From assembly GCF_009914755.1 (NCBI RefSeq), contig NC_060948.1: a DNA stretch of 64,000 nt. The stretch is one strand, 5' to 3'. The notes beneath the pieces are model-generated. The model did no database searches, had not been told where the DNA came from, and saw nothing but the letters and a program-made list of their open reading frames with translations. Below, one piece after another: positions 25,560-50,079 of the stretch. Both the position numbers and the translations under genes were made by a program. The stretch is from the human T2T-CHM13v2.0 reference genome, Homo sapiens. Within the stretch, counting starts at the first letter, position 1. Each line of letters begins with the position of its first letter.

Positions 25560-25925
25560 TATTTGTTTATTTATTGAGATGGACTATTGCCCTATCCCCC
25601 AGGCTAGAGTACAATGGCATTATCTTGGCTCACTGCAGCTTCCAACTCCGTATTTCCAGTGATTCTCCTGCCTCAGCCTCCTGAGTACCTGGGAGTAGAG
25701 CTGTAAGGCACCATGCCAGGCTAATTTTTTGTATCTTTAGGAGAGACAGGTTTTCATCATGTTGGCCAGGCTTGTGTGGAACTCTTGACCTCTTGGTCCA
25801 TCTGTCCCATATTTCCCAAGTGCTGAGATGACAGGCATGAGCCACCTCACCCAGCCCATGATATAGATAGATAGATAGATGATAGATAGCTAGATAGATA
25901 GATAGAGATAGAGATATATAGATAT
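25560..25925 (-). mobile_element. Alu (25560-25855) followed by a (GATA)n STR
   Basis: caggctagagtacaatggc...gacaggcatgagccacc, then an atagatagat array. Confidence 0.85.
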
Positions 25926-26669
25926 ATCTATGTATCTATATATATTTTATATATATGTAAAATACATGATTTGATTTTCTTTTTTATGTAAAAATTGACC
26001 CCTTATTTCTATAGCATAAATCACTCATAAATATCATTTTCAGTGACTCAGCCTCCAGTAAAGAAAGATACTTACATACCAGTGAAGCAGTAGTTCTTAG
26101 ACACTTCCAGGGTCACAAACTCTTTTCAGAAATTAAAGCTCTACATTTCTTAAACTGAAAATGCTTTAAGGCAGTCTGATGTACAAACTCTCTGTATCAA
26201 AATTACTAAGCAATTGACTTGCACAGATGTTTGCACATGAATACACAAAAAAACAAATATTGCAAAATCAATCTTAAGTACTGAGATACTTTTTCCTATT
26301 TGAAAGTTTTAAATATTCCATTGTATTTTGATGATAAAACCGATATGAAGTTCTGGGCCCCAGAGTAGAAAACGCTAAAGTATAATGAATATAAATGACT
26401 TCTTCAGAAAACCGGTTTACAGGCAATCAGCATTCATAAAATCAATTCTGTTTGAAATTTGCCTTATTTCAATGCAAAGTTATTACACTTTTAAAATGAA
26501 TTTTAGATATTAATTCAATCATTCTTATAATAAACCTTTGCTAGTTAGAAATAAATGAATAATAAATGTTCTGTTCATAAAGATAATAAATAAAATTGAG
26601 AAATTTTGATATCTTCAAACTTATTTTCTTTCAGTCTTATGGTTCCACCTTCATATTTTAAAACATTAC

Positions 26670-28853: not shown

Positions 28854-29664
28854 GAAGTCAAGTGTCTTTAAAAATGCTTTAACTGAGCAAAGACTAAACC
28901 TTTGGGGAAGTAATCTAGGAACATATTTGGAGGAATAGAATTCCAGGCAGAGAACATAATCATTGAAATAATTCTGACACTAGAATTAAGCAAACAGTCA
29001 TACTGTCATCATGTAGCAAGATGAACAAAGGAAAACGCTTAAGTGAGATCAAAGACAAATCCTTTTGGTTTTATTCCAAGTATAATTCTGGCTACCAGGA
29101 GAACAAACTAAGCTACAAGTGAGTATCAGAATCAAGCAGAGAGACCAAACAAATGATGATGCTTCAACAAACGTAATGGCAGAGGAGGTGATACAAGCAG
29201 TCATTTTATGTGACTGTATAAGTTGTGCTTTGCCGAATGTTACTTGGCTGATGGTGTAAATAATATTCAGATAGCGATGCTGAGTATGTAGGTGATTTTT
29301 TATTGTTACAACTTTCCTCTGAATTCCTTCTAGTATTTGACTTCACTCTTTTAACCAGAGTTAAAATTATTTATGCCTAAGTATTATATGGTAATCATTA
29401 GGTATGTACCATGTAAAAGTTCTTACTGTCCATCAAGTAATATAAAATTTACATATGATAGAAAAGTATAATTTATACTTTTAAGTTAATATCTTATAAT
29501 TTAATGTATGTATAAAACCTATGTTATATAACTAATTTATAAATATGTGTTCCTAAACATGTTCAATATACGTATCTGTATATTTTATAATATATATGTA
29601 TTGCATATAGATTAAATTTATACATTATATATATTTTAATTCATGTATAGTATATGTCTATATG

Positions 29665-32430
29665 TATTTTTTATATACTTTAAGTTCTGGGGTACATGTA
29701 CAGAAAGTGCAGTTTTGTTACATGGGTATTCATCCACCATGGTGGTTTGCTGAGCCCATCAAATCATCATATACATTATATATTTCTCCTAAAGCTATCC
29801 CTCCACTAGTCCCCTACCCCCAACAGGCACTGGTGTGTGATGTCCCCTCCCTATGTCCATATGTTCTCATTGTACAACTACAAATTATGAGTGAGAACAT
29901 GCAGTGTTTGGCTTTCTGTTCTTGTGTTATTTTGCTGAGGGTGATGCTTTCCAGCTTCACCTATGTCCCTGCAAATGACATAAACTCAGCCTATTTTATG
30001 GCTGCTTAGTATTCCATTGTGTATATGTGCCACATTTTCTTTATCCAGTCTATCACTGATGGACATCTGGGTTGGTTCCAAGTCTTTGCTATTGTGAACA
30101 ATGCTTCAATAAACAGAAGGGTGCATGTGTCTTTATAGTAGAATTATTTATAATCCTTTGGGTATATAACCCAAAATGACATTGCTGGGTCAAATGCTAT
30201 TTCTGGTTTTAGATCCTTAAGGAATCATCAGACTGTATTCCACAATGGTTGAAGTAATTTACACTCCCACCAACAGTGTAAAAGCATTCCTATTTATCCA
30301 CATCCTCTCCAGCATCTGTTGTTTCCTGACTTTTTAATGATCACCTTTCTAATTGGCATGAGATGGTATCTCATTGTGGTTTCGATTTGCATTTCTCTAA
30401 TGACCAGTGATGATGAGTTTTTTTCATATATTTGTTGGCTGCATACCTGTCTTCTTTTGAGAAGCATCTGTTCATATCCTTCACTCAGTTTTTCATGGGT
30501 TGGTTTAGTTTTTTTCTCATAAATTTGTTTAAGTTCTTTGTAGATTGTGGATATTGGTCTGTTGTCAGATGGATAGATTGTCCATTGTTAGATGGTAGGT
30601 TTATGGGGATAGCATTGAATCTATAAATTGCTTTGCACAGTAGGGCCATTTTCAAAATATTGATTCTTCCTATAATGAGCATGGAATGTTTTTCCATGTA
30701 TTTGTGTCCTCTCTTATTTCCTTGAGCTGTGGTTTGTAGTTTTTGAAAAGGTCCTTCACATCCTTTGTATATTTTATACCTAGGTATTTTATTCTCTTAG
30801 TAGCAACTGTGTATGTGAGATCACTCATGATTTGACTCTCTGCTTGTCTGATATTGGTGTACAGGAAAGCTTGTGATTTGTGTGAGCTGAGATAGTGGGG
30901 TTTTCTAAATATACAATCTTGAGATCTGCAAACAAAGACAATTTGACTTCCGCTTATTCCATTTGAATACACTTCATTCTTTCTCTTGCCTGATGGCCCT
31001 TGTCAAAACTTCCAAAACTGTGGTGAATAGGAGTGGTGAGAAAGGGGGTATCCTTGTCTTGTGCAGGTTTTTAAAATGAAAGTTTCCAGGTGCTTCCAGG
31101 CTGTGGTTTTGTCATAAGTACCTGTGATTATTTTGAAATATGTTCCATCAATACCTAGTTTATTTAGAGTTTTTGTCATGAAGTTGTGTTGAATGTTGTC
31201 GAAGGGCTTTTCAGGATTTATTAAGATAATCATGTGGTTTTTGCCATTGATTCTGTTTATGTGATGGATTATGTTTATTAATTTGTGTATGTTGATTCTG
31301 CCTTACATCCCAAGTACGAACCTGACTTCTTCATGGTGGATACACTTGTTGATGTGCTTCTGGATTTGGTTTGCCAGTGTTTCATTGAGGATTTTTGCGT
31401 CAATGTTCATCAGAGATATTGGCCTGAAATTTTCTTATTTTGCTGTGTTTCTGCCAGATGTTGATATCGGGATGATTCTGGCCTCATAAAGTGACTTACG
31501 GTGGATTGCCTCTTTTTCTATTGTTTGGAATAGCTTCAGAAGGAATGGTACCAGCTCCTCTTTGTGCCTCTGGTAGAATTCTTCTGTGAACCGTCTACTC
31601 CTGGATTTTGTTGTTGTTGTTGTTCATAGGCTGCTAATTACTGCCTCAATTTCAGAACTTGTTATTGGTCTATTCAGAGATTCAATTTCTTCCTGGTTTA
31701 GGCTTTGGAGGCTGTGTGCATCCAGGAATTTATCCATTTTTTCAGATTTACTAGTTTATTTGCATGGAGATGTTTATAGCATTCCCTGATGGTAGTTTGT
31801 TTTTCTATGGGATCAGTGGTGATATCCCCATTATCATTTTTTATTGAGTCCATTTGATTCTTCTTTATTTTTTTCTTCATTAGTCTGGATAGTGGCCTAT
31901 CTATTTTGTTGATCTTTTCAAAAAGCAGCTCCTGGCTTCATTGATTTTTTTGAAGGGTTTTCATATCTCTGTCTCCTTCAGTTCTGCTCTGATCTTAGTT
32001 ATTTTTGTCTTCTCCTAGCTTTTGAATTTGTTTGCTTTTGCTTTTCTTGTTCTCCATTCTTTTAATGTTGATGTTAGTGTGCCAATTTTAGATGTTTCCT
32101 ACTTTCTTTTGTGGACATTAAGTGCTACATATTTCCCTCAAAACACTGCTTTAAATGTTTCCCAGAGATTCTGGTATGCTGTGTCTTTGTTCTCATTGGT
32201 TACAAAGAACATCTTTATTTCTGCCTTCATTTCATTATGTACCCAGTAGTCATTCAGGAGCAGGTTGTTCAGTTTCCACATAGTTGTGCACTTTTGAGTG
32301 AATTTTTAAATACTGAGTTCTAGTTTGATTGCACTGTGACCTGGGAGACTGTTTGTTATGATTTCTGTTATTTTGCATTTGCCGAGGAGTGTTTTACTTC
32401 CAATTATGTAGTCAATTTTAGAATAAGTGC
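29665..32430 (-). mobile_element. Older L1PA (3' UTR plus ORF2), with an internal deletion near 30595
   Basis: 3' UTR ttatatactttaagttctggggtacatg and decayed ORF2 peptides ([24 protein letters not shown]). Confidence 0.9.
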
Positions 32431-35400
32431 TTTTACTCTGAGTGTAATTCTGGCTATTGGGAGAACAAACTGTAAGCTGCAAGTGGGTATCAGAATCAAG
32501 CAGAGAGACCAAACAAATGATGATGGCTTCAACAAATGTAATGAGTATGTAGGTGATTTTTTATTGTTTGGAACCTTCCTCTAATTTCTTTCTAGTATTT
32601 GATTTTACTGTTTTAACCAGAGTTAGAATTATTTAAGCCTAAGTGTTATATGGAACTCTTGAAGTATGTACCATGTAATATTTATTACTGCCCATCAAGT
32701 AATATAAAATTTACATGTGATAGAAAAGTATAACTTATAATTTATTATATTTTAATTTAATATTTGTATAAGCCATATAAGCTATATAACCAATTTATAG
32801 ATATAAGTATTCATAAACATATACAAGATATGTATCTGTGTATTTTATAATTTGTATATGTATTGCATACATAAGTAATTTATGCATTATACATTGTAAT
32901 CCATGTATATTACATGTCTATAAGTATTTCTAATATATATGGTTAACTTTGTTTCCAACCATTCAAGTACAGCAAAGTCGTCCTGTTCTTTGCCTCTTTG
33001 GCAGTCACTGGGAACTGGTAGGCCTGGTCAGTTTTACCTCAGAAGCCTGTTATGACCCTGTTCTTTTCATCAGGACAGCCCAATACATATCTTGAATGAG
33101 ATGGCTTATCAAGGCATCCCAGAAACCACTGGGTCCCATTTTTTTCTCTACCTTGCAATTTTATCCTGGAGTAGAAGATAGTCCACAAAACACACTTAGC
33201 TCTAACACAGGCTCTGTCACTTTGCTTTTTCATGGATTCTGAGAACAAACATGTAGGAGAAGATTAAGCACTTCCTCAGTGAACAGAAGGCACTGGAACC
33301 TTCATTCAATGTTTTTTTGGTTCAAATAATAGAGACTATTTTATGCCAATAGACCATTACACTTTCAAAGTGGTCACCTCTCTTCAGCTAGCAAATTCCC
33401 AATGGTATGATCCTGGATTTCTCCTGTTGCCAAACTGTGGGATCATCCTGATACAGCTGAATGCTGGGGTACCCCAGAAATGGACAAATCTCAATATTTC
33501 TTTTTTTCTGGACCCCAGAACTCCCAAACAGCTATTAAACCTATACCCTGGAATTTTCCTCAGAAAAATACAATAAATTATAAATATTAAGCTGTAACTG
33601 ATTCAGCAAGATTCTAGATTAATACATTAGCTAGTATAATTAGGCTTCATACTCTGCAGTTAGTTAATGCTGGTAGATGGTGGTTTCTCTTTTCAAGTGG
33701 GATAGGTGGATCTCAAGTTCCTGTTAAGAGGGATACTCATCTGTCTCAAGTTCAATCTATTAATGTTCCATCTCATGGGCAACTTGTAGCTAGACCTCGG
33801 CTAGAAATTACCCCTGAAGTTGAAGCTTGGAAACAATTTTTATCTTATAAAACAGGAACAGTGATGTAGATTCAATCCAGGGAAGAGAGTAATAGAAAAA
33901 AAAATGTATCACGTAGTGCATAGAGCTAACCCTGGCACTAAACTGGTAACTTACAACTAGATTCCACCAGTACCTTTCATAGATAATAAAATTGAACTAT
34001 GGGCTCATTCATCCCTCGATGAAGATTGATCTCAGCATACTACAGTAACCCATACCATTGAAACATGGTGTCAGCTAGTTTTAAATGTATTTGGATCCTC
34101 AAGAAACTATAGAAAGCTCAGATGGATACTGGATTCTCACTGAACCTGAGTCCACTCAGTTCTGGATTTCTTCTATACTGCATACTCTTCATGTGCTAAG
34201 TCAAAAGGTGACAATATTAAGGCTTGGGCGCAACAGAAAACCAGTATGATCAGGCCCTCAAATCAAATCAATAGATGTAGTCCATTTAGTAAACATGAGG
34301 CTATTATACTCAAACCCCTGATGCAGAAATGGATCTTAATACATCCTATTATGAATATAATTGAGCCCTTCCTTCACTCCAAAGTTGACATGATCAGACC
34401 CTGAAGTCAGCCTAAAACAGCCATAGTCCTTACCTGGATCTAGCCAGAATCTCAATCAGGAAGACTCTTGATTCACTTGAGAGCTGATATGATTAAACCA
34501 TTGTTACAAACTGAAACTGAAAGAATGAGACTCGGCATTCAGCATAAATTTAAAATATTGAGGCCTAGAGCCCAGACTCAAGAATGGAAAGAAAAACACT
34601 GGACCCAACCAGAAGCAGATCCAGTTAGGTACTGGTCCCAAACTGGGATGGAAACAGTGGTACCCAGGCCCCAACCTGGAGATGATAGATCCAGACCCCG
34701 AAATCACACTGAAGCTGATATCATCAAACTTTTATTTCAGTCTCAATCAGAGACAGTCACACAGTGGAGAGAACCAGTAACTCTGACAGATCACCATTGG
34801 ATACAGTCTGAAACTGAAATAGTGATGTTTTGGAACCAACCTGTGGCTGATAAGTTAAAAGACTGGATACAACATGAAGCTTATGCATTTAGACTCTGGG
34901 ACAAGTTTGAAAGTGTTAAAGTCAAATTGTGGACCCAAGCTGAAGATGATACTTTGAGACCCTGGAATCAGAAAGACATTGGTGTAATTGACCCCTGGGT
35001 ACAAGGTAAAGCTACTGTATTAACACAGTGGATGCAGGGAGTGTCTCAAGAATTACATCCATGGACACAATCTGAAACTCACACAGTCCCACTGTGGACC
35101 CAGAATGAAACTCCAATAATTTCATATCTTGGACCAAGATGTTAGCAGATACACTCACAACATGGACAAAGGCTGAATTTCAAGGGTAAACATCCTGAAG
35201 ACAGTCTGAAACTGATCCAATCATACTGTGAACTATTGCCAAATCTCCAACAGTAAATCTCTGGACACGCTCTGTATCGAATGAAGTCACATGTTGGAAC
35301 CAAGAAGAATTTCCAGCCTTATTTCCCTTGACAGAGTCTTATGGCTAAGACAGTCACACCATGGATCCAGGATAGATTTCCAACAATGAATCCCTGGGAA

Positions 35401-35950
35401 AAACTACAGCTGAAACCGTCATACAATTGATCCTTGATGAAATGTCACCAATAAATCCAAGGACAAAATTGCAGCCTGAATATCTAGAAGGAAATACCCG
35501 ACTCCCATCTGAATTTAATCCAGTCTCATTGTGGACCATGGCTTATTTGCCAGCAGTAAATTACTGGATACAGTTTGATACTGAAGCAATAACACTATGA
35601 ATCCAGGTTGAGTCTTCAGCAAAACATTCCTGGAAACAGTTGGAAATGGATATAATCCCACTAGGGACACATGCTGAATCACTAGTGATGAATTCATGGA
35701 TAAACTCTATCTGATATGATCATGTGTATCCAGGCTGAATCACTATTATTAAATCCTTGGACAGAGTCTGAAACTGATATAGTCACAACATGGATTCTTG
35801 TTGAAACTCTAGGAGTAAGTCCCTGGTTACCTGATATATTCCTACCATGTACCCATGCTGAACATCCACAGATATCTTGGACTCAACCATGGATTATCGC
35901 TGAAACTCCAGCAATGAATCCCTAGAGAAAGGCTACAGCTGATATGGTCC

Positions 35951-37914
35951 TATCAGGGGAATTTCAGCCAGATATCGGGTGAAATTCACCCCCAATATTT
36001 CACATACCTTCTTTTCTATTTTCCCTAAGTGTCGGCCACTCTGAGAAATAAAGAGACAGAGTACAAAAGAGAAATTTTAAAGCTGGGTGTCCGGGGGAGA
36101 CATCACATTGGCAGGCTCCATGGTGCCCCCAGAGCCATAAAACCAGCAAGTTTTTATTAGTAATATTCAAACGGGTAGGGAGTGTGCGAATAGCATGTGG
36201 GTCACAGAGATCCTGTGCTTCACAAGGTATATAGAATATCACAAGGCAAATGGAGGCAGGGCAAGATCACAGGACCAGAGGACCAGGACAAAATTAAAAT
36301 TGCTAATGAAGTTTCAGGCACACATTGTCATTGATAACATCTTATCAGGAGACAGGGTTTGAGAGCAGACAACCGGTCTGACCAAAATTTATTAGGCAGG
36401 AATTTCCTCTTCCTAATAAGCCTGGGAGCACTACAGGAGACTGGGGCTTATTTCATCCCTACAGCTTTGACCATAAAAGACGGCCACCCCCCGAAGTGGC
36501 CATTTTAGAGGCCTACCCTCAGGGACACATTCTCTTTCTCAGGGATGTTCCTTGCTGAGAAAAAGAATTCAGCGATATTTCTCCCATTTGCTTTTGAAAG
36601 AAGAGAAATATGGTACTGTTCTGCCCAGCTGACCGGCAGTCAGAGTTTATCTCTCTTGTTCCCTGAACATTGCTGTTATCCTGTTCTTTTTTCAAGGTAC
36701 CCAGATTTCATATTGTTCAAACACACATGCTCTACAAATAATTTGTGCAGTTAACGCAAACATCACAGGGTTCTGAGGTGACAAACATACTCCGCAGCTT
36801 ACAAAGATGACAGGATTAAGAGATTAAAGTAAAGACAGGCATAGGAAATCACAAGGGTATTGATTGGGGAAGTGATAAGTGTCCATGAAATCTTCACAAT
36901 TTATGTTCAGAGACTGCAGTAAAGACAGGCGTACATCAGAGAAATGCAAATCAAAACCACAATGAGATACCATCTCACACCAGTTAGAATGGCAATCATT
37001 AAAAAGTCAGGAAACAACAGGTGCTGGAGAGGATGTGGAGAAATAGGAACACTTTTACACTGTTGGTGGGACTGTAAACTAGTTCAACCATTGTGGAAGT
37101 CAGTGTGGCAACTCCTCAGGGATCTAGAACTGGAAATACCATTTGACCCAGCCATCCCATTACTGGGTATATACCCAAAGGACTATAAATCATGCTGCTA
37201 TGAAGACACATGCACCCATATGTTTATTGCGGCATTATTCACAATAGCAAAGACTTGGAACCAACCCAAATGTCCAACAATGATAGACTGGATTAAGAAA
37301 ATGTGGCACATATACACCATGGAATACTATGCAGCCATAAAAAATGATGAGTTCATGTCCTTTGTAGAGACATGGGTGAAATTGGAAATCATCATTCTCA
37401 GTAAACTATCGCAAGAACAAAAAACCAAACACTGCTTATTCTCACTCATAGGTGGGAACTGAACAATGAGATCACATGGACACAGGAAGGGGAATATCAC
37501 ACTCTGGGGACTGTTTTGGGGTGGTGGGAGGGGGGAGGGATAGCATCAGGAGATATACCTAATGCTAGATGATGAGTTAGTGGGTGCAGCGCACCAGCAT
37601 GGCGCATGTATACATATGTAACTAACCTGCACAATGTGCACATGTACCCTAAAACTTAAAATAAAAAAAAATTAATTAAAAAAAAATAATAATTATATGT
37701 ATTTATGATTAATATGCTTTCTTTCACCTGACATTTGGTCAATTTTGTTAATTTCTTTATTAAAAAGTTTAAAAATAAAAAAAAGACAGGCGTAAGAAAT
37801 TATAAAAGTATTAATTTGGGGAACTAATAAATGTCCATGAAATCTTCACAATTTATGTTCTTCTGCCGTGGCTTCAGCTGGTCCCTCCATTCAGGGTTCC
37901 TGACTTCCGCAACA
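35951..37914 (-). mobile_element. MER11 (HML-8/HERV-K11) solo LTR inserted in the giant exon
   Basis: The minus strand starts TGTTGCGGAAGTCAGGAACCCTGAATGGAGGGACC. TSD gtcc(ta) at ~35947 and 37915. Removing the LTR restores ADMVLPRNQAEF, a repeat unit. Confidence 0.88.
36934..37781 (+). mobile_element. Young 5'-truncated L1 (L1PA2-like) nested in MER11, with a probable 3' transduction
   Basis: Intact ORF2 C-terminus (...SLIGGN*) and 3' UTR gagatcacatggacacaggaaggggaatatcac. TSD aaagacaggcgta at 36921-36933 and 37782-37794. Confidence 0.93.
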
Positions 37915-40900
37915 GTCCTACCAAGGAATCAGGCTGAATTTATAGAAGGAAATGCATGGACACAGTCTGAAACGTATACAGTCAAAGAGTTGATCCTGAA
38001 TGATTCTCTAGCAGTAAATTCACAGACATAGACAATAGCTGATGCAGACAAGCTGTGGACCAAGCCTGAATTTCCAGCCATAAATCTCTGTACAAAGTTT
38101 CTAGGTGATAGCACATACCATGGATTCAGGATGCCTCTCCAGCAATGAATCCATTTACACAGTATCTATCTTATACAATCAAACCATGGGACCAAGATGA
38201 GTCTTCAGCAGTAAAACTCTGTACACTACCTGAATTTGATAACATTATCCTGTGGATACAAGCCAAGTCTCCAACAGTAAATCTGTGCATAGAGGATGTT
38301 ACTTCCACAGTCATACCATGGGCCCAGGCTGTATCTCCAGCAGAAATTCCATGGACACAGCCTATACCTTCGATAGTCATAGCTTGGACCCACGTTGAAT
38401 ATCTATCAGTGAATACCTGGACAACCTCCATAGCTGATAGTATCACACTATAGAAAGGGGCTGAATTAACAGCAGGATTTCCATGAATACTGCCTTGGGC
38501 TGCTACTATCACACTGACGGCACAGTCTGAATTTCCAGCAGGAAATCTTTGGACACAGCCTGTGTATGATACAGACACATTATGGCCTCAGGCTGAACCT
38601 CCAGTAGTAGGGTACTGGACAGAACCTGTAGCTGATACATTTCGTGGACTCAGTTTGAATTTTTAACACGAAAGCCTTGGATCAAATCTGTATCTGATAC
38701 ACTCATACCATGGACCCAGGCTGAGTCTTCAGCAGTAAAGCATTTGACAAGGGCAATAGGTTATACAATCAAACTATGGAACCAAGTCAAATCACCTGCC
38801 ATACATCTCTGGAAACAATATGAAACTGATATCCTCACACAGTGGACCAAGACTAAATGTCCAAAAGTAAATGCCTGGACACAGCCTATACCTGCTACAG
38901 TTAGTTATACCACAGAACCAAGCAGGTAAGAGTAGCAGTAAATCCCTCCACAGAGCTTGAAGCAGAAATTGTCTTACTGTGGACTCAGGCTGATTCTACA
39001 ATCAATAATCTCTGTACACAAACTCTACTGATAGATTGAAACCATTGGCTAAGAATGTTTATGTAGCAGTAAATCCATGGAGCCAGTCTAAAACTGAGAA
39101 AGTTACATCATGGACCCAGGATATGTTGCCAGCAATAAGTCACTTAACAGTGGCTGTGACTGGTATAGTCACACTGCAGTACATGGCTGTATTTCTAATA
39201 ATAATTCCCAGGGCAGAGGCTCTAGCTGATACAGTCATAACATGGACACAGACAAAATCTTCAGCAATCAATTTCTGGTTACAACCTGTACCTGATACAG
39301 TCACACTATGGACCTAAACAAAACATCTAAGTAATCACTTGGAATGAGGCTGAATTTCCAGCTGTAAATCCCATGATGAAGTCTAAGTCTCCAATTGTAA
39401 ACATCTGGACAGTGTCTGAATCTCCAGCCCCAGGTCCTCTGTTGCAGGATGAGACTATTGATACAGTCACACCATGGACCCAGACTGAATCTTTGGCAGT
39501 AAATGCCTTGACAAATCCTGTTGCTGATACACTCACACTGTGTACACAGCCTGTAACTCCATCATTAATCTTCTTTTCACAAAGTTTACATGCTACACTG
39601 AAAACAGGGCATCAAACTGAATGTCTACCCATAAATACCTGGACAGAAGCTATAGCTTCCTAAGTTACACTCTGGACCAAGGCTGATTTTCCAGCAATAA
39701 ATACCTGGACACAGCCTGTTTTTTATAAAGCTACAATTTGGGCACAGGCTGTATGTGCAACAGTAAAGGCCTGGACACAACCTTCACCTAATACAACCAG
39801 ATGATGGTCCCAATCTGAATCTGCAGCACTAATTATGTGGATACTGCCTGTATCTGACACACACATAGGATTGATCCAATTTGAATCTTCAGCAGTAAAT
39901 CCCTGATTACTGCCTATATTTAATAAATTATCATTGTGGACCCAGCCTGTATCTCTAGCAGTCAATCGTGGATAGAGTCAATAGTTTCCAAGTCACCCCA
40001 TGGACCAAAGCTTTACTTCTAGCAACAAGTCCCTGGCCACCTCCCATATCTGATATAGTTGCACTGTGGACCCAGGCTGAATCTTCTGCAGTCATTACCT
40101 CCACACAGCCAGTATCTGACAAAATTATACTGTGGCTGCAGGCCCAGTATCCAGTAGGAATTACCTGGACACAGACTGTATCTGATATACTTACATCGTG
40201 GACATATGATGAATCTTCAGCAGAAAATCCAGGGGCATGGGCCATAGTTTCCTCAGTGTTACCATGGACCCAGGATATCCCTTCAGCAGAAAAAGCCTGG
40301 ACACTAACTGTGTCTGAATCAATCATGCCATGATCCCAGTCTGAGTCTCCAGTGGTAAACACATGGACAGAGACCGCAGCTTCCACAGACACAAAGTGGA
40401 CCTATGATGATTTTCCCGCTGCAAATTCTTGTACACAGAGTGATATGGGCTCATTTTGGACAATGCTTAAAACTGAAGCTAAGAAACTCTGGGCAATGCC
40501 TGAAGCTAAATTATTTATAGAATTTCATTACTGTCTCAACCTGATACCACACAACCTTTGATCCAAGATGAAAATCAAGCATCAATTTTACGGACACATC
40601 ATGAAATTGAAAATATCGATGAATGGACCTTGCCTAAATTTGGAACACTTATATCTTGGATAGTGCCTATGCCTCAGGCAGCAAAACCATGGTCCAAACT
40701 TGAAGCTCTAGTTACAGAACTTTGTTTAAAACTGGAACAGAAAAAATAAAACCTTGGGCTCAGCCAGAATTTCAAACATTAAGCACATTTACTCCCTTTG
40801 AACTTGGTAAAATAGAATCCTGGGCCAAACAGAGAACTACAACATTTATAACATGGATCCAATGTGAAACTGATGCCTCCTTCCTGTGTACCCAATCTGA

Positions 40901-43579
40901 AGTAGGTACAATGAGACCCCAGATCATTTCTGAAGCTGCTACAGTAAAACTATGGATCTGGACTGAAACAGGCACAATCCACCCCTGGACTCAAGGTAAA
41001 ACTAATACGATCCTTGTCTGATACACTACTGTATCAGGCTGAAATGCAGGCAGTGAAATGCTTGACCATGCCTGACATTAATACTCTGAGTGCTGGGTTT
41101 CAGACCCAAAACAGTGTAAGAAGAAATGGTACTCAACTTTATTCTCACAGAGTTACTACCCGGATGAAGCCAGAATGGCAAATAATCCAACCATTGAACC
41201 AATCTGAAAAGAATGCAGTCAGACCCTGGACCCAGTCTGAAGGTGATGTTCTGCAACCTTGGATCTATGCTGAAACCAATACAGTCAGACTCTGGGCCCA
41301 TTCTGAAACTGATAAAATAAAACAATGGACTGAGCCTGAATCTCAAGCAATTAGGACCTGACCTGAGGCAGGTATGTTGACAAGTTGGTCCCCAGCTCAA
41401 AGCGCTGCAGTTTGGACCTGGACCAAATTTGAATCTCAAATGACACACTTCTGGACCCAGAATCAAATTAGCATAAATTACCCTTGGGCTCAGCATGTAC
41501 CTGCTACAATCATACAATAGACTTATTCTGAAATTCATCCCTGGACCCACTCTGAAGCCAATACAGTGATAAGATACTGGTTCCAGATTCGAATTCAATA
41601 AGATCTTGGAACCAACCTGAAACTGAAGTATTCCAAATTTGGACTGTAAGTCAAGAAATGAAACCCTGCAACATGACTGAAATTGATACAGTCACATCTT
41701 GCTTATAGACTCAATGTGATACAGTTAGAACCTGGATTCATCCTGAAAGTTAGCTGCTCTCTCCCTGGCCCCAGACTGAAGTTGGTATATTTTGGCCCTA
41801 GACTCAGCAAAGAGTTGCTACATATCCAACCTGGACCCACCTGAAACCCAAGCAGTGAGATCCTGGATCAAGCAGGAAACTGATATAGTCAGATCTTCAT
41901 TTTACATTCACATGAATAAAGGCAGATCATGGGCTTATTCAAAATCTCAAAGAGTCAGTCCCTGGATCCAGCTGGTAGTTGATATAATTCCATCTTTTAT
42001 CCAGTCTGAATCCTTCCTACTAAGATTCTGGCCCAAGGTTCCATCTCCAGTAGTCAAAACATGGACCTTGCTTATGGGAAGAACACTCATATCTTGGATA
42101 CTGCCTGTAACCTAAGCAGACAGACACTGGATCCAGTCTGAAGCTGATATTATTGAATCCTTTGGTGTTTTTAAAGCTGGCATAGTAAGAACCTGGATCC
42201 AGCCTGAAACAGAAATACTAAGACCCAGAACCCATTATAAGGCTGATATAAGTGCATAGTTTTCTCCTCCTGAAATTGAGTCTGAGAGACACTATTAATG
42301 AGTCATTTTGGCTGCTTGTCTAAACGTGCACTCTTTTTGCCTGTAAAAAACTGTTTCTTTCCCAGATCAGTATTTTATCTCTCTGTTAACTGAGATAACT
42401 GCCTCAGAAAGCCAATATGAAATCAATTATCTCCAACCAAGCCAGCTTACAAGCATTTGGCTTCCTGGAAGAGCTGTTTACCAGCACTAAAGCAGGAAAT
42501 TAAAAATTATCCAAATAAAACAATGCCCTGATGTCCCAGGTACCTCTCTTATCTCTCTTTCTTCCTCCATTTTCCTTCCTCTTTCTTATTCTCTTCCATC
42601 TCCATGTACACTGTGCCCTTCTTGTTCCGTCTTTTCTTCTGGTACATTCCCTTCATTCTTCATTTTCCCATCTTGTTCAGTTATTTCTCCTCTTGTCTCC
42701 TCTCCTATTCTCCTTTCCATAGCCTCTTCTGCTAACGCCCTTCAGAAAATATTTTCCTCAACATTTCCTGAAGAGTCCATTCTTTCTCATTCTTTTTCAT
42801 TCTTGCATGCTGCTGCAGCCACACTTTTAACAAAATAACCTCATCTGATGCCTGGACAATCTGGACCCAAGTCTGAACAACAACCTCTTAGGCATTCAGA
42901 ACTCAAATGTTTCCCTGGTTGAGTGTCAACTAGCTGTGATCTGGAAAGAAAGTTTGCAGGCTTTCTGGCTCTTCAGAATAGTTGTTATTTCTCATGAAAC
43001 CACAGGCACCTTTGGTCTAGTCATATGTTTAAGTTATTATACCTGGTACAAAGACTCTTGTTGAACCCTAAAACCACAGTTTGTAAGATCAGAGGTTATG
43101 TCCTCAAACCTTTGCAAAACCAAAATTTATGTTATTGTATGAATCAGCACAGACATCCCAATATTGAGAGAATATCTTATTTTTGCCAGACAGGATTTGT
43201 GGGCTATGTTTTATAAACACAATTCTATTCAGAGAACAGTATTTTAAAGATAGTCTTACTTCTTAGAAAGGATTTATTATTCCACTTGAGGTATATAAAT
43301 ATATACACACATTATTGGATAATAGTATAATATCTTGGATATAAATAATAAGATATATATTTATATATACATTAAATTATTATTTGAAGGAAAAGCATGC
43401 AGATAACCTCTGTAGTATATCTAAACTTGTAGGATGAATAATGTATATTTCCAAGGATTTTCTCAGATTGAAGATACTGAATTTCCAAGCTTATTCCTAA
43501 AAACCTAAAATTAGATTTTAGAAATGGAAGAGTAGTAACACTAATCTCACTCTATTCCATATGTATATTCCTTCTGCAG

Positions 43580-43744
43580 AGTGTGGATTATGCCCTGGCA
43601 ATGTCACCCTCTGTCCCAACTGCTGGGAGTCAGAAATTGGTGAATTCCCTTGGATAGTTGCTGTACCACTTTCTCTCATGTCTGTGCTGGCTCCATACTA
43701 AATGAACAGTGGTTCCTTACTACAGCTAGATGTGCCAATTTTAT
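43580..43744 (+). pseudogene. Protease-like exon (N-terminus of domain B)
   Basis: ctgcag|ECGLCPGNVTLCPNCWESEIGEFPWIVAVPLS, a frameshift, then HVCAGSILNEQWFLTTARCANF|gtgagt. Confidence 0.88.
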
Positions 43745-43834
43745 GTGAGTCTAAGTAATTCATCTTAAGATTAAGATATAATTATAAAACAATAACAACA
43801 TTGAGATTATAAATGAATATATTTCCCTTTATTT

Positions 43835-43840
43835 GTGTGT

Positions 43841-43879
<39 letters not shown>

Positions 43880-44095
43880 AAAGACAGAGAGAAAGATAGA
43901 TAGAGACAGGGTCTTGCTCTGTTGCCCAGGCTGGAGTTCTGTGGCATGATTCAGAGTAGCCTCAAACTACCAAGATTAAGGAATTCTCCTACCTCTGCCT
44001 CCTGAGTACCTGGGACCACAGGCACACACCAATGCATCTGGCTATTTTTTTCAGCAGAATTAAAGTCTTATCATGTTGCCCACCTGTTCTCAAAT
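43835..44095 (-). mobile_element. (GT)n/(GA)n tail plus truncated old Alu
   Basis: gagacagggtcttgctctgttgcccaggctggag...; the Alu breaks off near 44095. Confidence 0.8.
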
Positions 44096-44109
44096 AATCC
44101 TTGAAAATA

Positions 44110-44316
44110 GTTTCTAGAGGAGTATTTGTATTTTAGTGCTTTCCTTTTCTGGCTCCAAGGAGTGACATGACCTAGCCATGGACCCTGGCAACACCAAGGG
44201 CCCATGACTACTTCTGCTTCCATGTCCCTTTCAGTCTACTTCTACAAATGCTTCAGCTTTTATCCCCACTCCCACTTCAATGTGGCCACATTTCATCTCT
44301 CTGCCACAGCCTCAGA
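44110..44316 (+). pseudogene. Remnant exon: end of domain B plus S/T/P linker
   Basis: FSAFLFWLQGVT*PSHGPWQHQGPMTTSASMSLS, a frameshift, then STSTNASAFIPTPTSMWPHFISLPQPQ|gtaagg. Phase 1 matches the next exon. The 5' end is not identifiable. Confidence 0.55.
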
Positions 44317-45733
44317 GTAAGGCTCAAAAACCTGGTAGGACAAGTAAAGGAAGAAGAAAATGGAAATATAAAATAATAGAGAGAAGGAAATGGGAGCTAA
44401 AGCTCTTCCTGAGAAATGCATGAGTTTTTTATCTACCAAATCATAGAAATTATTTTCTTTTTGGCTTACAAAGGCATCTCATACTTGATATATGATACAA
44501 TTCCCAGAGTATCCCCATAGATTACTCTGATATAGAACATATAACATGATTATTATACTTATCTTAAATGTATATTCTGATACTACATAAATACAATGGA
44601 CTGATCAAATTCCCATGGCAAAAGATGAACTGGGTTATCATTAAGACACACTCTCCTAATACAAAGACATTTCTTTACTACCACACAGAAGCTTACATTT
44701 GTAATAGAGTTATTTTAAATTAAGTATATTTTAAGTTAAAGATATGATATTTGGAAACAGCATAGTTGGTAAGTAATGAGATGTAGGTGACGGTGTACCA
44801 GACTGCATTACATTGGGATTATCAGTTTCTCCCTTCCCCTGGCTGCTAGAAAACCTACCAGAATATTAGCAATGGCTATTTCACATTACTGTCTATCCTC
44901 TTATTTTCTTGGAAATTGAGACATCTCTTTCGGTCTCATCAATTAAACATGCTCTTAACCACAGCTATTTTATACTTAACACCCATTGCCATAGCTACGG
45001 TGAATAATACATTTAAAACATAAAGGAGGCCATAATTATTTGCTCACATCCGCCAAAGTCTAATTCAGAGACAATTACATATAAGATCTTAGTTATGCTT
45101 CCAATTTCATCTCTAGTTGCTTACCCCTTCTATAGACAGATTATCTTCACCATTTTTCTCTCCCTATTTATATATTGATGAGTATATCTTCCACTCAATT
45201 TTCTGAGGAACTCTCAAATGATTTTAAAAATATGAGCTCTTTCCTGAAACTCAGACTTGAATTTTCTATTTAAAATATTGGTTTGGTATCTTACTAACAT
45301 TATAAGTTTATGAAGATAAGCCCTCTCCAATTTAGAGACAGGTGCTTTATCTCCAAATTTTTCATTATTTATCTAATATCTTCAAATCATTGCATTTTTT
45401 GTTGCCTATCTACTTCAGTGACTTCTAAGTAGCTAAAATCATAGATATATAAATGTTGCAATGGGGGAGAAAGCTGGAATGACTCCCAGTATTTTGATTA
45501 AATAAACTTAAGCTAGGACTTAAAGAAACTATGATCTTGGAAAGACAATAAGAGGCATACTTATTTTCAAGAAAAATTCATGAACACAGAAGAAGCAGAA
45601 GTTTGTCTTTGTTAGTCATATTTAACAATACTGACTCAAATAGCAGAAATAGGAGGATTTAAAACTTTAAAAAATGGTCTACAAATGGCAATTCTATTTA
45701 AATTAGCACAGTTAGCTTATTATTCCTCCTCAG

Positions 45734-45861
45734 CTTCAGCAGATCAGATTTCTCTTGAATACGCCATGCCTTGGAAGGCTGGGATCAACAGCTTTGGCAG
45801 TCATGTCTGCCATAGTTAGCAGCTCTTGGGTTCTCACAGCTGCCCACTATGTTAGCAACGT
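45734..45861 (+). pseudogene. Protease-like exon (N-terminus of domain C, His motif)
   Basis: cctcag|SADQISLEYAMPWKAGINSFGSHVC, a small deletion, then IVSSSWVLTAAHYVSN|gtaag. Confidence 0.85.
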
Positions 45862-46181
45862 GTAAGATTGTGCCTGCCTCTTCTCAACTGTATAACTCAT
45901 TATCCCATAATTACATTGCTGATGGTGTCTATGTCCAAATTCACTTCTATAATGCATGACCATCTCACTTATACAGATAACTTTTTTTAGGCTAAAAAGA
46001 AATTGTCTCACTGTGTTTGGCTTATAGTACCTCTGTTAGTTAATTCCTCTGCAATCCCATTGTCTATGGACTCTTTATTCATAGATTTCTGATTTCTCCG
46101 AAGATGAGCTAGGGACCTTGTGTATCATGACTAAAGCAATATACTGGAAAGCCTGATGTAGACTTAAGGTTGAGGTTTTCT

Positions 46182-46991
46182 TTTTTTTTAACTTTTTAAA
46201 TTATACCTTAAGTTCTAGGGTACATGTGCACAATATGCAGGTTTGTTATATATGTAAACATGTGCCATGTTGGTGTGCTGCACCCATTAACTCATCATTT
46301 ACTTTGGTATATCTCCTAACGCTATCCCTCCCCACTCCCCCCACCCCATGACAGGCCCTGGTGTGTGATGTTCCCCTTCTTGTGTCTAAGTGTTCTCATT
46401 GTTCAGTTCCTACCTATGAGTGAGAACATGTGGTGTTTGTTCTTTTTTCCTTGGGATAGTTTGCTGAGAATGATGGTTTCCAGCTTCATCCGTATCCCCA
46501 CAAAGGACATGAACTCATCCTTTTTTATGGCTGCATAGTATTCCATGGTGTATATATGCCACATTGTCTTAATCCAGTCTATCTTTGATGGACATTTGGG
46601 TTCATTCCAAGTTTTTGCTGTTGTGACTAGTGCCACAATGAACATATGTGTGTATATTTCTTTATAGCAGCAAGATTTATAATCTTTCATGTATAATCCC
46701 AGTAATGGGATGGCTGGGTCAAATGGTATTTCTAGTTCTAGATCCTGGAGGAATGAACAGACACTTCTCAAAAGAAGACATTTATGCAGCCAACAGACAC
46801 AGGAAAAAATGTTCATCATCACTGGCCATCAGAAAAATGCAAATCACAACCACAATGAGATACCATCTCACACCACTTAGAATGGCAATCATTTAAAAGT
46901 CAGGAAACAACAGATGCTGGAGAGGATGTGGAGAAATAGGAACGCCTTTACACACTGGTGGGACAGTAAACTAGTTCAACCATTGCGGAAG
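46182..46991 (-). mobile_element. Short L1PA with twin-priming inversion (switch at ~46750), intronic
   Basis: An antisense 3' UTR/ORF2 end is followed by a sense [10 protein letters not shown]...VQPL piece. TSD core aggttttct at 46173 and 46996. Confidence 0.9.
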
Positions 46992-47043
46992 TTTCAGGTT
47001 TTCTAAAGAATGTACTATAATAAATATTTGCCTATGCATACAG

Positions 47044-47291
47044 GAATCCTGAAGACACTGCTGTGATTCTGGGCCTGAGGCACCCTGGGGCACCAATGAG
47101 AGTTGTGAAGGTGTCTACCATTCTACTGCATGAGAGATGCCAGTTGGTGAATGGGGCAGCAAGGAATGACCTGGCATTGCTACTCCTCCAAGATGTCCAG
47201 ACTCCCATTTGGCTCTCAGCACCCTTGGGCTATCTGAAGAACCTGAATAGTTCAGAATGCTGGCTGTCTGTGCCACAGATTATTATACCAG
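47044..47291 (+). pseudogene. Protease-like exon (domain C, Asp motif), open frame
   Basis: catacag|NPEDTAVILGLRHPGAPMRVVKVSTILLHERCQLVNGAARNDLALLLLQDVQTPIWLSAPLGYLKNLNSSECWLSVPQIIIP-G|gtcag. Confidence 0.88.
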
Positions 47292-47734
47292 GTCAGCAGT
47301 GAGTTTTCTTATTAGGGTAGCAGTTCTACAAAATGAGGTTCATATTTTTAATATTATGGTTCAAGGAAGAAGTATGATCACAATTGTATAAATTACTAAT
47401 TATAAGATATTTAATGCACATAAAAAACCCAATAGGAAATTTGTTTTCATGTTATAAGTTGATGGTTCTGATGATAACTTCATAGGATTTTAGATCTGAA
47501 AACAATTATATGAGCATCTTTCTCTGTACAGTCAATTTTGTAAACTAAAGTAGAGATGATTTGCTTTCCAACTCTTTGCTGACTAAAAAAAAGGAAAAAG
47601 AAGTTTTTGTTTTGTTTTGTTTGTTTTTCTCTCTTTATGAAAAAGAAGCTGAACTTGACTTGGAATTTGGAATTCCGTAAGTAAAAATTTACTTATTACT
47701 TTTGAAGGGTGGCATTTAAAAAGTGATTAAAGAG

Positions 47735-48330
47735 TGACAATGCTGTCCACAGTGTCTCACTCCTGTAATTCCAGCACTTTGGGAGCTTGATCTAGGAGAA
47801 CCCTTTGGGCCCAGGAATGTGATACCCATTTGGGCAATGTAGCAAGACTTCATCACTAAACAACAACAACAAATAGCCTGTTGTGGTGTTGCACACATGT
47901 AGTCCCAGCTACATGGGAGGCTGAGACAGGAAGATAGCTTGAGACCTGGAGGTTGAGGCTGCAGTGTGTGAAGATGGTGGCAATGCACTCCAACTTTACG
48001 TGGGTGACCACGCAAGAACTTGTCTCAAAAAAAGGGGGCGCTACTGTGGTGGTTCATGCCTGTAATTCCAGTATTTTGGGAGGATGAGGCCAGTGAATCA
48101 CCTGAAGTCAGGAGTTTGAGACCAGTCTGACCAACATGGGGAAAACCCATCTCTACTAAAAATATGAAATTAGCTAGGAGTGGTGGTGTGTTCCTGTAAT
48201 CCCAGTTACCCAGGAGGCTGAGTCAGGAGAATTGCTTGAACCCAAGAGGCAGAGGTTGCAGTGAGATCAGGCCACTGCACTCGAGACTGAGTGACAGAGT
48301 GAAACACCATCCCCAACCCCCAAAAAAATC
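47735..48330 (+). mobile_element. Two tandem Alus (AluJ-like 47735-48032; AluS-like 48035-48330)
   Basis: Two consecutive two-arm Alu patterns. Confidence 0.85.
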
Positions 48331-48539
48331 AAGGACTAGAAAGCGAATGAAATACATAAACATGTCTTGTAAAATGGTAATGGTGACAAAATAAACTGAA
48401 TTTATTTGTATAGGTTATATGTACAAGTTTAAAGTAATGATGACACAGTGATAAGACAGTTCATGGTTTTATCTCAATACTTAGTGTTTAAATGTAACAT
48501 ATGTTCCTTAGGATGGTTATACTCCATTTTTCTTCCTAG

Positions 48540-48673
48540 GAGAGAATGATGAGTTTCTAGAAATGTTAAAGGTGCAAGTGATGGAAGCTTCCAGCTGTGC
48601 CCACCTGTACCCTGACATAGGCAGTTCCATTGTTTGCTTCATTACTCAGGCCAAAGACTCAAATGCAAATGTG
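48540..48673 (+). pseudogene. Protease-like exon (domain C), open frame
   Basis: ttcctag|ENDEFLEMLKVQVMEASSCAHLYPDIGSSIVCFITQAKDSNANV|gtacag. This is the C...C loop exon of trypsin genes (phase 1 in, phase 0 out). Confidence 0.82.
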
Positions 48674-49211
48674 GTACAGAGTCAAATGTTTTTTCTATCT
48701 ACATAATAGAAAATATAACTTTGTCCCTGTGTAAAAGGGTATACAGCATATGCTTAAATGAAAAATTTAAGTGAATCATTGATCAACAGGAAACCATTTT
48801 AAAAGTCTTTAATTACAGAAAAAAAATCTCTGAAAAAAATTTGTTGTTAATCTCTGAGTTTTCTTACATGGGTTGTTAATCTCTAGCCATACTAAATAGC
48901 TAGCATGCTGCACTTGAAACAAATTAGACATTATATATAATTCCCATATTCTAATAATAGTATCTTCACACCTCAAAGTTGAAAACAGTCTAACCTTTTC
49001 CTATTTCCCCAATTAAATAACTTTTTAAGGCTTAATCCTCTGATTTTTTTGTAGTAATATTTTTGAATGTATTTGATCAGGATGATTTTCTTGTGTACTT
49101 ATCTGATGTCTCACTTTCTTCTAAATACATATTTTATTATCCATTTATTAGATCTAAGTTTAAGATGTTGGAACAGGAATTTAAATCCAAATTCTGCATT
49201 TGAATTTACAG

Positions 49212-49603
49212 GAATCAGTGAGTCCAGGAAGTGCCATTATGTGCAGACCAATATCTGGCAATGGCAGTTGGAGACATATAGGCTTCAATAGTCTCAAAGC
49301 CCTAGCTACTACAGTGAGTTCACACTTCTCCTGGATCTTATCTACTTCAGCAAAAGAAGGCCACCCACTAAACCAGGCCCTTATGCCTTGAGCGCAAACT
49401 CCTAAGTCCTCTAGTCTCCTTAAACAGCCAACCACACTGCCACTTTCTTCAATAATAATTACTGCAGCCCTGAGACTTTGGTAGCCTAGTGACTATAACT
49501 AGTGATGCTACAGTCTGCTCACAGTATGATAAAACACCAGAACAACAAAAACAAAATATTGACTTAAGCCTCCTAAAATATCTCTAAATATACCTTCAAT
49601 AAA
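49212..49603 (+). pseudogene. Terminal exon (end of domain C, 3' UTR and poly(A) signal)
   Basis: ttacag|ESVSPGSAIMCRPISGNGSWRHIGFNSLKALATTVSSHFSWI... TGA at 49389 is possibly premature, with the next in-frame TAG at 49482. AATAAA at 49598-49603. Confidence 0.8.
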
Positions 49604-50079
49604 TATGCTTTTTCTACATAACAACTGCTTTCTACTTACTTCCTGAACTAATGCTTGGCCTTGGATTGTTTTCATTCTTCAGATTGATTCAGAAGTGTCT
49701 ATTTAACATGAAAGTGAATACAGAATTTCATGTGTCAGCAAATAAAAATTTCAAAATGATGCAAAATACAAATGTGAAATTGAATTTGTGAACTTTACTA
49801 TGCTTTCAAATTATGTATTCATACCTACCCACTCACACAATTTTTTATAACTATCTGCATGTTCTCCTCAGGTGGGAGAAAAACAGCATCAGAATTCTTG
49901 AATAATTTATGAAAGACAGAATGACGACACTATACAAGGTTTAACCTATTCACAATACTGTAGTGAATGAAAACATTACATTTAAAATCCTACCAAGTGT
50001 TGAGTAAGTAAATAAAATATGTGATTTCAATCACTCTAAAATATGTGTACATGAAGAAAATAGAACAATGATTAAAACC

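What the first reader, a model, noticed from the sequence alone, without database searches (positions are those of the whole stretch)
32964..33130. The giant exon begins with the tail of a third, upstream trypsin-like domain
Seen: one frame reads QVQQSRPVLCLFGSHWELVGLVSFTSEACYDPVLFIRTAQYIS*MRWLIK (TGA at 33093, where Trp is expected) and continues toward the repeat region. Established: trypsin domains end G-G-P-L-V-C...W-x-L-V-G-I-V-S...C..P-x-V-Y-T-R-V..Y..W-I in a terminal exon. Inference: the giant exon is internal, not first, so the ancestral protein was protease-like domain A + a repeat spacer of roughly 2,500 aa + domains B and C. As I recall, published PRSSLY models treat the giant exon as exon 1, so unannotated upstream exons may exist in species with an intact gene.
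Basis: partly seen in the sequence, partly recalled or inferred. Interest (0 to 1): 0.8.

Follow-up and report, generated by a model that had tools for sequence, protein, structure and literature searches.

The report
Relic tail of PRSSLY's first domain
The short peptide is a real remnant of the end of a third, N-terminal trypsin-like (inactive) domain of the dead human Y-linked gene PRSSLY, and it is fused to the start of that gene's giant exon, as it is in species where the gene is intact.

Summary
Window 32964-33130 reads as stated, with TGA at 33093.

The peptide alone gets no Pfam hit and only weak PDB matches (best E 0.17). Orthologues settle the question:
- PRSSLY proteins found through domains B and C, independently of this peptide, carry the same tail. 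It lies at residues 1-57 of a 3873-aa slow loris model (72% identity), and after a complete upstream trypsin-like domain in two others.
- Loris residues 1-300 align to window 32961-33887 in one frame.
- Pfam Trypsin covers that domain end to end in orthologues (51 bits).

So the ancestral protein was domain A, then the giant spacer, then domains B and C.

Two caveats apply. The published deer, ferret, fox and giraffe cDNAs already begin with domain A exons, while the mouse lemur cDNA begins just upstream of the tail. This human copy also lacks the upstream A exons. They survive in a paralogous copy at chrY 10.254-10.257 Mb. The finding refines a known gene's architecture and is of moderate interest.

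The parts
28863..32966 (+). Remnant of the intron that preceded the tail exon. It is L1-rich, ends in an AT-rich stretch and a pyrimidine tract, and carries the mutated acceptor (CAA at 32964-32966 where four paralogous copies read CAG).
   Evidence: The stretch is colinear with the same intron of the chrY 10.25 Mb copy, but only back to about window 28863. There is an RVT_1 hit on the minus strand at 31003-31299.
32967..33113 (+). A-tail: the last part of PRSSLY domain A, an S1/chymotrypsin-fold pseudoprotease. It runs from the position equivalent to Gly193 to the C-terminal helix. Gln stands at the Ser195 position.
   Evidence: Translation is. Domain A HMM scores 77.6 bits. Identity is 72% to loris P0021 residues 1-57, 64% to P0024 residues 194-248 and 71% to P0022 residues 410-463. 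PDB matches lie in register with the C-termini of chymotrypsin and kallikrein.
33093..33095 (+). TGA stop at the conserved Trp of the C-terminal helix.
   Evidence: Searches show the stop. W stands there in P0021, P0024 and P0026. TGG is kept in the chrY 10.246 Mb and 22.317 Mb copies, and TGA is shared by four copies.
32967..43004 (+). Relic of the giant exon: A-tail plus a W-x-Q-rich spacer. It is broken by many stops and frameshifts and by an L1/Alu insertion around 36285-37710.
   Evidence: Loris residues 1-300 align to 32961-33887 in one frame at 48% identity, and later loris segments are colinear up to 43004. Sheep, bat and Peromyscus models hit 34198-43004. In the genome search, the P0026 match at chrY 6170892-6171890 (window 32892-33890; query residues 70-403) contains 9 stops.
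43525..43745 (+). Domain B, first exon (the His57-equivalent exon, reading TTARC), with a frameshift.
   Evidence: tblastn. Pfam Trypsin E 0.001 on 43644-43745.
44132..44330 (+). End of the domain B tail exon and the B-C linker. The middle exons of domain B are missing between 43745 and 44132, where a TG repeat and what I read by eye as Alu-like sequence lie.
   Evidence: Orthologue residues about 144-290 have no match here. The TG repeat is at 43834-43877.
45739..45862 (+). Domain C, His exon (LTAAHY), with a frameshift.
   Evidence: tblastn. Pfam Trypsin E 0.036.
47045..47296 (+). Domain C, Asp exon (ARNDLALLLL), open over 92 codons.
   Evidence: 69-86% identity to 20 orthologues. tblastn.
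48539..48673 (+). Domain C, third exon.
   Evidence: tblastn.
49212..49478 (+). Domain C tail exon, the last PRSSLY exon. It lies about 1 kb upstream of TSPY17P.
   Evidence: tblastn. The hub's gene table places TSPY17P at 50503-51015.

Best explanation
Window 32967-33113 is the decayed start of the giant exon of a human PRSSLY pseudogene copy. It encodes the C-terminal third of an N-terminal S1 (chymotrypsin-fold) domain, domain A.

In species with an intact gene, the order is a leader peptide, then three small exons encoding most of domain A. The intron before the Ser195-motif exon is then spliced to an acceptor (..TTCAG|GT.CAGCAAGG..). The same exon runs on without interruption from the domain's tail into the roughly 2,800-3,200-residue W-x-Q-rich spacer. 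Domains B and C follow on their own small exons.

Domain A cannot be catalytic. Position 57 is Asn or Ser, not His. Position 195 is Gln or Arg, not Ser. Asp102 is kept.

In this human copy only the tail survives:
- The canonical acceptor AG is mutated (CAG to CAA).
- The conserved Trp codon is TGA.
- The downstream exon is riddled with stops.
- The upstream A exons are missing, because homology with the fuller paralogous copy ends inside an L1 about 4 kb upstream.

The human sequence therefore has no protein function. Its value is as a record of the ancestral three-domain architecture.

Shown: homology, contiguity, domain identity and the lesions. Inferred: the splicing pattern in primates, secretion of the intact protein, and how the 5' exons came to be absent from this copy.
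For: 1. Independent retrieval. Four long PRSSLY proteins were found with the domain B+C region of sheep P0012. Three of the four carry the tail: P0021 at residues 1-57 (E 1.3e-25), P0024 at 194-248 (E 9e-23) and P0022 at 410-463 (E 1.5e-21). The fourth, rat P0023, starts at the tail's last residues.
2. Contiguity. P0021 residues 1-300 align to window 32961-33887 in one frame. P0026 segments are contiguous over chrY 6170892-6172950.
3. Domain identity. Pfam Trypsin covers the whole of domain A. The first 265 residues of P0032 match at residues 42-256, profile 9-220 of 220, 51 bits. P0040 scores 35.7 bits, P0037 34.0 and P0030 24.0, against a cut-off of 20.6. P0040 gave 52 PDB hits at E<=0.01, all S1 proteases, with the alignment showing N at His57, D at Asp102 and R at Ser195.
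4. The human genome itself. Exons A1, A2 and A3 plus a tail lie in order on one strand at chrY 10256798-10246332.
5. Lesions.
6. Published cDNAs of deer, ferret, fox and giraffe begin with a leader peptide plus domain A exon 1 (by-eye translation). The lemur cDNA contains the acceptor and the tail.
Against: - Pfam finds nothing in the human peptide even at E<=10. Its best PDB hit has E 0.17, and 2 of the 17 hits are unrelated proteins.
- Pfam also misses domain A in 3 of the 6 orthologue models that hold a near-complete domain A and no domains B or C (P0036, P0035, P0033).
- Most orthologue proteins are automatic predictions, and several have no species name. A model could in principle fuse two neighbouring genes.
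- I saw only the first ~400 nt of each published cDNA. That domain A and the giant exon lie on one transcript therefore rests on the stated cDNA lengths and on uninterrupted ORFs in the predicted proteins.
- No upstream A exon is detectable in this window.
- The AlphaFold model of domain A was too poor to use.
Confidence: 0.92

Rival explanations
1. The resemblance to a trypsin tail is chance in non-coding DNA.
For: There is no Pfam hit on the peptide. PDB E-values are only 0.17-1.5.
Against: The peptide is 64-72% identical to the same segment of three PRSSLY proteins that were retrieved without using it. The domain A HMM scores it at 77.6 bits, against 0.4 bits or less elsewhere in the window. 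Nine representatives match at E<=1e-10 in a library of 1.84 billion.
Confidence: 0.01
2. The tail is the last exon of a separate, neighbouring trypsin-like gene upstream of PRSSLY. It is only joined to the giant exon in faulty automatic gene models.
For: Most orthologues used are automatic predictions. P0022 is plainly chimeric at its N-terminus, with RNase H and Gag pieces. The published text treats the upstream ORF as having no identifiable domains.
Against: The reading frame runs from the tail into the spacer without a stop in P0021, P0022, P0024, P0026, P0031, P0032, P0034 and P0042. Decayed human DNA still follows the loris ORF in one frame for 309 aligned positions. The cDNAs of deer, ferret and fox, which carry accessions that file 9 assigns to RNA-seq assemblies, start in domain A and are listed at more than 11-15 kb.
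Confidence: 0.04
3. The tail is the displaced tail exon of domain B, whose middle exons are missing from this copy. It would not be a third domain.
For: Domain B here lacks its middle exons. The best match of the peptide among the 20 shorter orthologues is the domain B tail of sheep P0012 (25% identity, E 6e-4 in a 20-protein database).
Against: The end of the true B tail (FLFWLQGVT..) is still in place at about 44132, so the two tails overlap in content. Orthologues have both tails. The peptide is 64-72% identical to the A tail against 25% to the B tail.
Confidence: 0.01

Closest known systems
PRSSLY as described by Hughes et al. 2022 (PMC9178871). I read sections 5, 12, 16 and 22, find passages, and parts of supplements 1, 2 and 9. 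Figures were not visible.
   Same: It is the same gene family and locus type: a Y-linked, testis-expressed gene with a giant exon followed by conserved trypsin-like exons, and a pseudogene in human, chimpanzee and rhesus.
   Different: The text says the long upstream ORFs 'have no identifiable domains' and puts the conserved trypsin-like region at about 1750 bp in four to nine exons, which fits B+C only (my inference). The N-terminal domain A and its tail at the head of the giant exon are not mentioned in the text I read. The human 'model' in Additional file 9 begins inside the giant exon and differs in sequence from this window, so it comes from another copy (by-eye comparison).
TMPRSS9 / polyserase-1 (recalled, not tested here). 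NCBI names the rat orthologue Tmprss9l1.
   Same: Several S1 protease domains sit in tandem on one polypeptide, and at least one is inactive.
   Different: As I recall, polyserase-1 has a transmembrane anchor and an LDLa module, and its domains are closely spaced. Here a spacer of about 480 to 3,200 residues separates A from B. A lacks His57 and Ser195, B has R at His57 and L at Ser195, and C has no GDSGGP-type Ser motif (my by-eye reading, not a formal alignment).
PRSS55, called the closest paralogue in the abstract of PMC9178871.
   Same: It is a testis-specific S1-family gene.
   Different: As I recall, it is a single-domain protease. It has no giant exon and no tandem domains.

Membership tests
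Peptidase S1 / chymotrypsin fold (Pfam PF00089 Trypsin) | Match of the human peptide itself to the family profile | tested here: not met
   There were no families at E<=10 for the 43-aa and 60-aa readings. Single decayed exons of domains B and C also mostly fail: only 2 of 6 hit.
Peptidase S1 / chymotrypsin fold (Pfam PF00089 Trypsin) | Match of the orthologous whole domain to the family profile above the curated cut-off, with the tail at its C-terminal end | tested here: met
   The first 265 residues of P0032 score 51 bits over profile positions 9-220 of 220. P0040 scores 35.7 bits with residues 46-249 on profile 12-220. P0030 scores 24.0 and P0037 34.0. The tail motif sits at residues 207 onward in P0040.
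Peptidase S1 / chymotrypsin fold (Pfam PF00089 Trypsin) | Register of the C-terminal landmarks: P198, the Cys after it, W-x-L-V-G-hydrophobic-V-S, the next Cys, P-x-hydrophobic, and the C-terminal helix Trp | tested here: met
   15 of 17 PDB hits are chymotrypsin or plasma kallikrein chains aligned at their last ~45 residues. One of the 15, 1dlk_B, is labelled 'Thrombin heavy chain', but its printed alignment has the same residues as the chymotrypsin hits. The numbering of the landmarks is recalled.
Peptidase S1 / chymotrypsin fold (Pfam PF00089 Trypsin) | Catalytic triad His57, Asp102, Ser195 | tested here: not met
   The human tail has Gln at the Ser195 position (V-Q-Q-S-R-P against G-D-S-G-G-P). 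Orthologues have N or S at position 57, D at 102 and Q or R at 195. It is a fold member, not an active protease.
Peptidase S1 / chymotrypsin fold (Pfam PF00089 Trypsin) | Predicted three-dimensional fold | tested here: inconclusive
   The AlphaFold2 model of P0040 with a 10-sequence alignment had mean pLDDT 39.2 and pTM 0.30. No fold search was run on it.
PRSSLY orthologue group | Colinear homology to PRSSLY of other mammals: tail, spacer, domain B, domain C on one strand | tested here: met
   20 orthologues are 69-86% identical to the domain C Asp exon.
PRSSLY orthologue group | Intact open reading frame and complete exon set | tested here: not met
   There are stops at 33093 and 33240, and 9 stops in the P0026 match over window 32892-33890. 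The A1-A3 exons and the middle exons of domain B are absent. It is a pseudogene copy.

The most novel reading that the evidence does not exclude
PRSSLY may not be a 'domain-less ORF plus protease domain' gene. It may be a secreted, three-domain, polyserase-like pseudoprotease. Its N-terminal domain A is detectable in a monotreme-like sequence (P0032) and, by my by-eye reading of lizard cDNA starts, in reptiles. On this reading the giant exon arose when the linker that follows domain A's last exon ballooned. That linker is roughly 480 residues in P0032 and about 2,800-3,200 in eutherians.

If so, the published mouse alleles, which lie near the 3' end, could leave domain A plus the spacer intact. 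Strepsirrhine transcripts that begin just upstream of the tail could start translation at the Met straight after the tail's Trp, giving a protein without leader or domain A.
Probability: 0.35. Interest if true: 0.55.

Novelty: new member of a known kind. Interest (0 to 1): 0.45.

Why it matters
It corrects the working picture of an unusual Y-linked gene. The 'upstream ORF' of PRSSLY starts inside a recognisable, catalytically dead S1 domain, so the protein has three protease-like domains and a leader. The giant exon is an expanded inter-domain linker, not a first exon of unknown origin.

This bears on three things: how the gene's evolution is modelled, how knock-out alleles near the 3' end are read (the authors themselves say function may be partly preserved), and where to look for 5' exons in primates.

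For the human locus itself nothing functional is implied. The copy is dead and 5'-truncated.

Tried and rejected
- Pfam on the peptide gave no hit. Pfam on whole 12-14 kb frames with X at stops found nothing at all, not even domains B and C, so that format is uninformative.
- Tandem Repeats Finder did not see the spacer repeats.
- tblastn of the 20 shorter orthologues gave no hit on the tail at E<=10. Only a word-size-2 blastp showed the weak likeness to the sheep B tail.
- I read a minus-strand hit at 25684-25854 to the domain C region as an Alu artefact. This rests on my own recognition of the Alu translation and on NCBI masking of 25814-25999.
- tblastn with the N-terminal parts of P0022 and P0024 found no upstream A exon in the window, nor did the domain A HMM.
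- The AlphaFold2 model of domain A had low confidence (pLDDT 39), so I ran no fold search.
- P0021 was too long for the genome search, so I used P0026 and P0013 instead.
- The hamster PRSSLY paper contains none of the words domain, exon or trypsin in its main text.
- No paper in the library contains 'Tmprss9l1'.

Full report
OBSERVATION. Just upstream lie an AT-rich stretch, a pyrimidine tract and ..CCATTCAA|GTACAGCAA...

DIRECT TESTS ON THE PEPTIDE ARE WEAK. Pfam gives nothing at E<=10. phmmer against PDB sequences gives 17 distinct hits at E<=10, the best at E 0.17. Fifteen of them are chymotrypsin or plasma kallikrein chains aligned at their last ~45 residues in register, and two are unrelated. 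As a control, single decayed exons of the undoubted downstream domains also mostly fail Pfam, with only 2 of 6 hitting. The negative result therefore says little.

ORTHOLOGUES DECIDE IT. The open 92-codon Asp exon of domain C (47024-47299) retrieved 20 mammalian proteins at 69-86% identity. They include a TPA entry named PRSSLY. tblastn of these proteins maps the pseudogene as follows:
- spacer up to 43004
- domain B first exon at 43525-43745
- end of the B tail plus linker at 44132-44330
- domain C exons at 45739-45862, 47045-47296, 48539-48673 and 49212-49478

A second search used only the B+C part of sheep P0012 and asked for proteins of 3192-5000 residues. It returned four:
- Slow loris P0021 (3873 aa) begins with the tail itself: 72% identity over 57 residues, E 1.3e-25, with Trp where human has TGA.
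- Apodemus P0024 has the tail at residues 194-248.
- The unnamed P0022 has it at residues 410-463.
- Rat P0023 starts at the tail's last residues.
In P0024 and P0022 the tail follows a complete upstream domain.

Loris residues 1-300 align to window 32961-33887 in a single frame at 48% identity. P0026 matches contiguous genomic pieces over chrY 6170892-6172950. So the tail and the spacer are one exon.

DOMAIN A IS A TRYPSIN-FOLD DOMAIN.
- A phmmer scan of 1.84 billion representatives with the 96-residue read-through gave 24 hits at E<=1e-3. Sixteen carry the tail motif, typically at residues ~175-265, which is the end of an N-terminal domain.
- Pfam Trypsin covers that domain end to end. The first 265 residues of P0032 score 51 bits over profile positions 9-220 of 220. 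P0040 scores 35.7 bits, P0037 34.0 and P0030 24.0. Three other models, P0036, P0035 and P0033, are missed.
- P0040 gives 52 PDB hits at E<=0.01, all S1 proteases.
- The alignments show Asn or Ser at His57, Asp kept at position 102, and Gln or Arg at Ser195.
- Domain B reads TTARC and GDLGAP. By my by-eye reading, not a formal alignment, domain C keeps TAAHC and NDLAL but has no GDSGGP-type Ser motif. All three domains therefore look inactive.
- P0032, P0034, P0042 and P0022 each show three Trypsin stretches.
- The spacer between A and B is about 480 residues in P0032 and about 2,800-3,200 in P0021, P0022 and P0024.

THIS COPY IS 5'-TRUNCATED. A profile of domain A from 12 orthologues hits only the tail in the six frames of the window: 77.6 bits there, 0.4 bits or less elsewhere.

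The window's own genome could be searched. With P0030, exons A1 (chrY 10256798-10256619), A2 (10254618-10254397), A3 (10254017-10253871) and a tail (10246521-10246332) lie in order on the minus strand, each with one stop or a frameshift. That copy is 84-85% identical to the window over kilobases. The two are colinear upstream of the tail only back to window ~28863, inside L1 sequence. The stretch that would hold A1-A3 has no counterpart in the window.

Tail-bearing copies lie at six places on chrY: 6.171 Mb (this window), 9.967, 10.150, 5.981, 10.246 and 22.317 Mb. The 9.967 Mb copy is 99.05% identical to the window over 421 bp.
- Four copies keep the acceptor ..TTCAG|GTACAGCAAGG... The window has CAA and its near-identical partner has CAC.
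- TGA is shared by four copies, and TGG is kept in two.

WHAT IS IN PRINT. Hughes et al. [quoted passage not shown] Their text has no occurrence of catalytic, triad, signal peptide, N-terminal or tandem. I could not see their figures.

Their Additional file 9 shows only the first ~400 nt of each cDNA:
- By my by-eye translation, the deer, ferret, fox and giraffe cDNAs start with a leader and the first domain A exon. The echidna start equals the N-terminus of P0032.
- The mouse lemur cDNA starts in AT-rich sequence, then has the acceptor and the tail.
- The human model starts inside the giant exon and differs from this window.

Two library searches (PRSSLY, Tmprss9l1) found no paper describing a third domain. 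Subscription journals are not covered.

VERDICT. It refines a known gene rather than revealing a new kind of system, and the human copy is a dead, truncated relic.

Noticed in passing
window 48235-49892; chrY 8.9587-9.8515 Mb: The last PRSSLY exon (domain C tail) recurs on the plus strand about every 20.3 kb across the TSPY array, with 42 listed hits at 64-65% protein identity. One unit aligns to window 48235-49892 at 83.7% over 1,682 bp, which also covers the third exon of domain C. The TSPY repeat unit therefore seems to have captured the 3' end of PRSSLY. A search for PRSSLY with TSPY gave 6 papers, and none of the 5 listed deals with this, judging by title and abstract.
   Followed up: partly
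chrY 22.79 (-), 23.46, 25.30 and 26.92 Mb (+); also 7.35, 7.94, 23.03 and 23.23 Mb: Further PRSSLY-derived copies and fragments lie in the ampliconic long arm and elsewhere on the Y. Four near-identical copies have an A3-like exon, spacer and domains B and C, but no tail hit. The counts are lower bounds.
   Followed up: partly
window 43745-44132: The middle exons of domain B are missing here, yet a match to them exists in the 99%-identical partner copy at chrY 9956377-9956625. Coordinate offsets between the two copies differ by about 870 bp between the tail and the domain C Asp exon. This suggests a recent deletion in this arm. I did not align the two directly.
   Followed up: no
P0021 residues 3632-3709; window 50503-51015: The slow loris PRSSLY model ends in a NAP (TSPY-type) domain, and in the window TSPY17P lies about 1 kb after the last PRSSLY exon. 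PRSSLY followed by TSPY on one strand may therefore be an old primate arrangement. Alternatively, the loris model may be a read-through fusion.
   Followed up: no
chrY 22317646-22319207 (locus L016): The 22.317 Mb copy has unusually long open frames (571-839 codons) across the tail and early spacer, with few stops. It may be the least decayed human copy.
   Followed up: no
chrY 10.150 Mb and 5.981 Mb copies, inside the tail: This near-identical inverted pair carries a 42-bp insertion within the tail coding sequence, at the W-E-L-V-G position. Part of the inserted sequence is repeated.
   Followed up: no
window 32967-49478: The hub's RefSeq table lists only TTTY8B and TSPY17P in this window. 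The 16.5 kb PRSSLY pseudogene copy is not annotated there.
   Followed up: no
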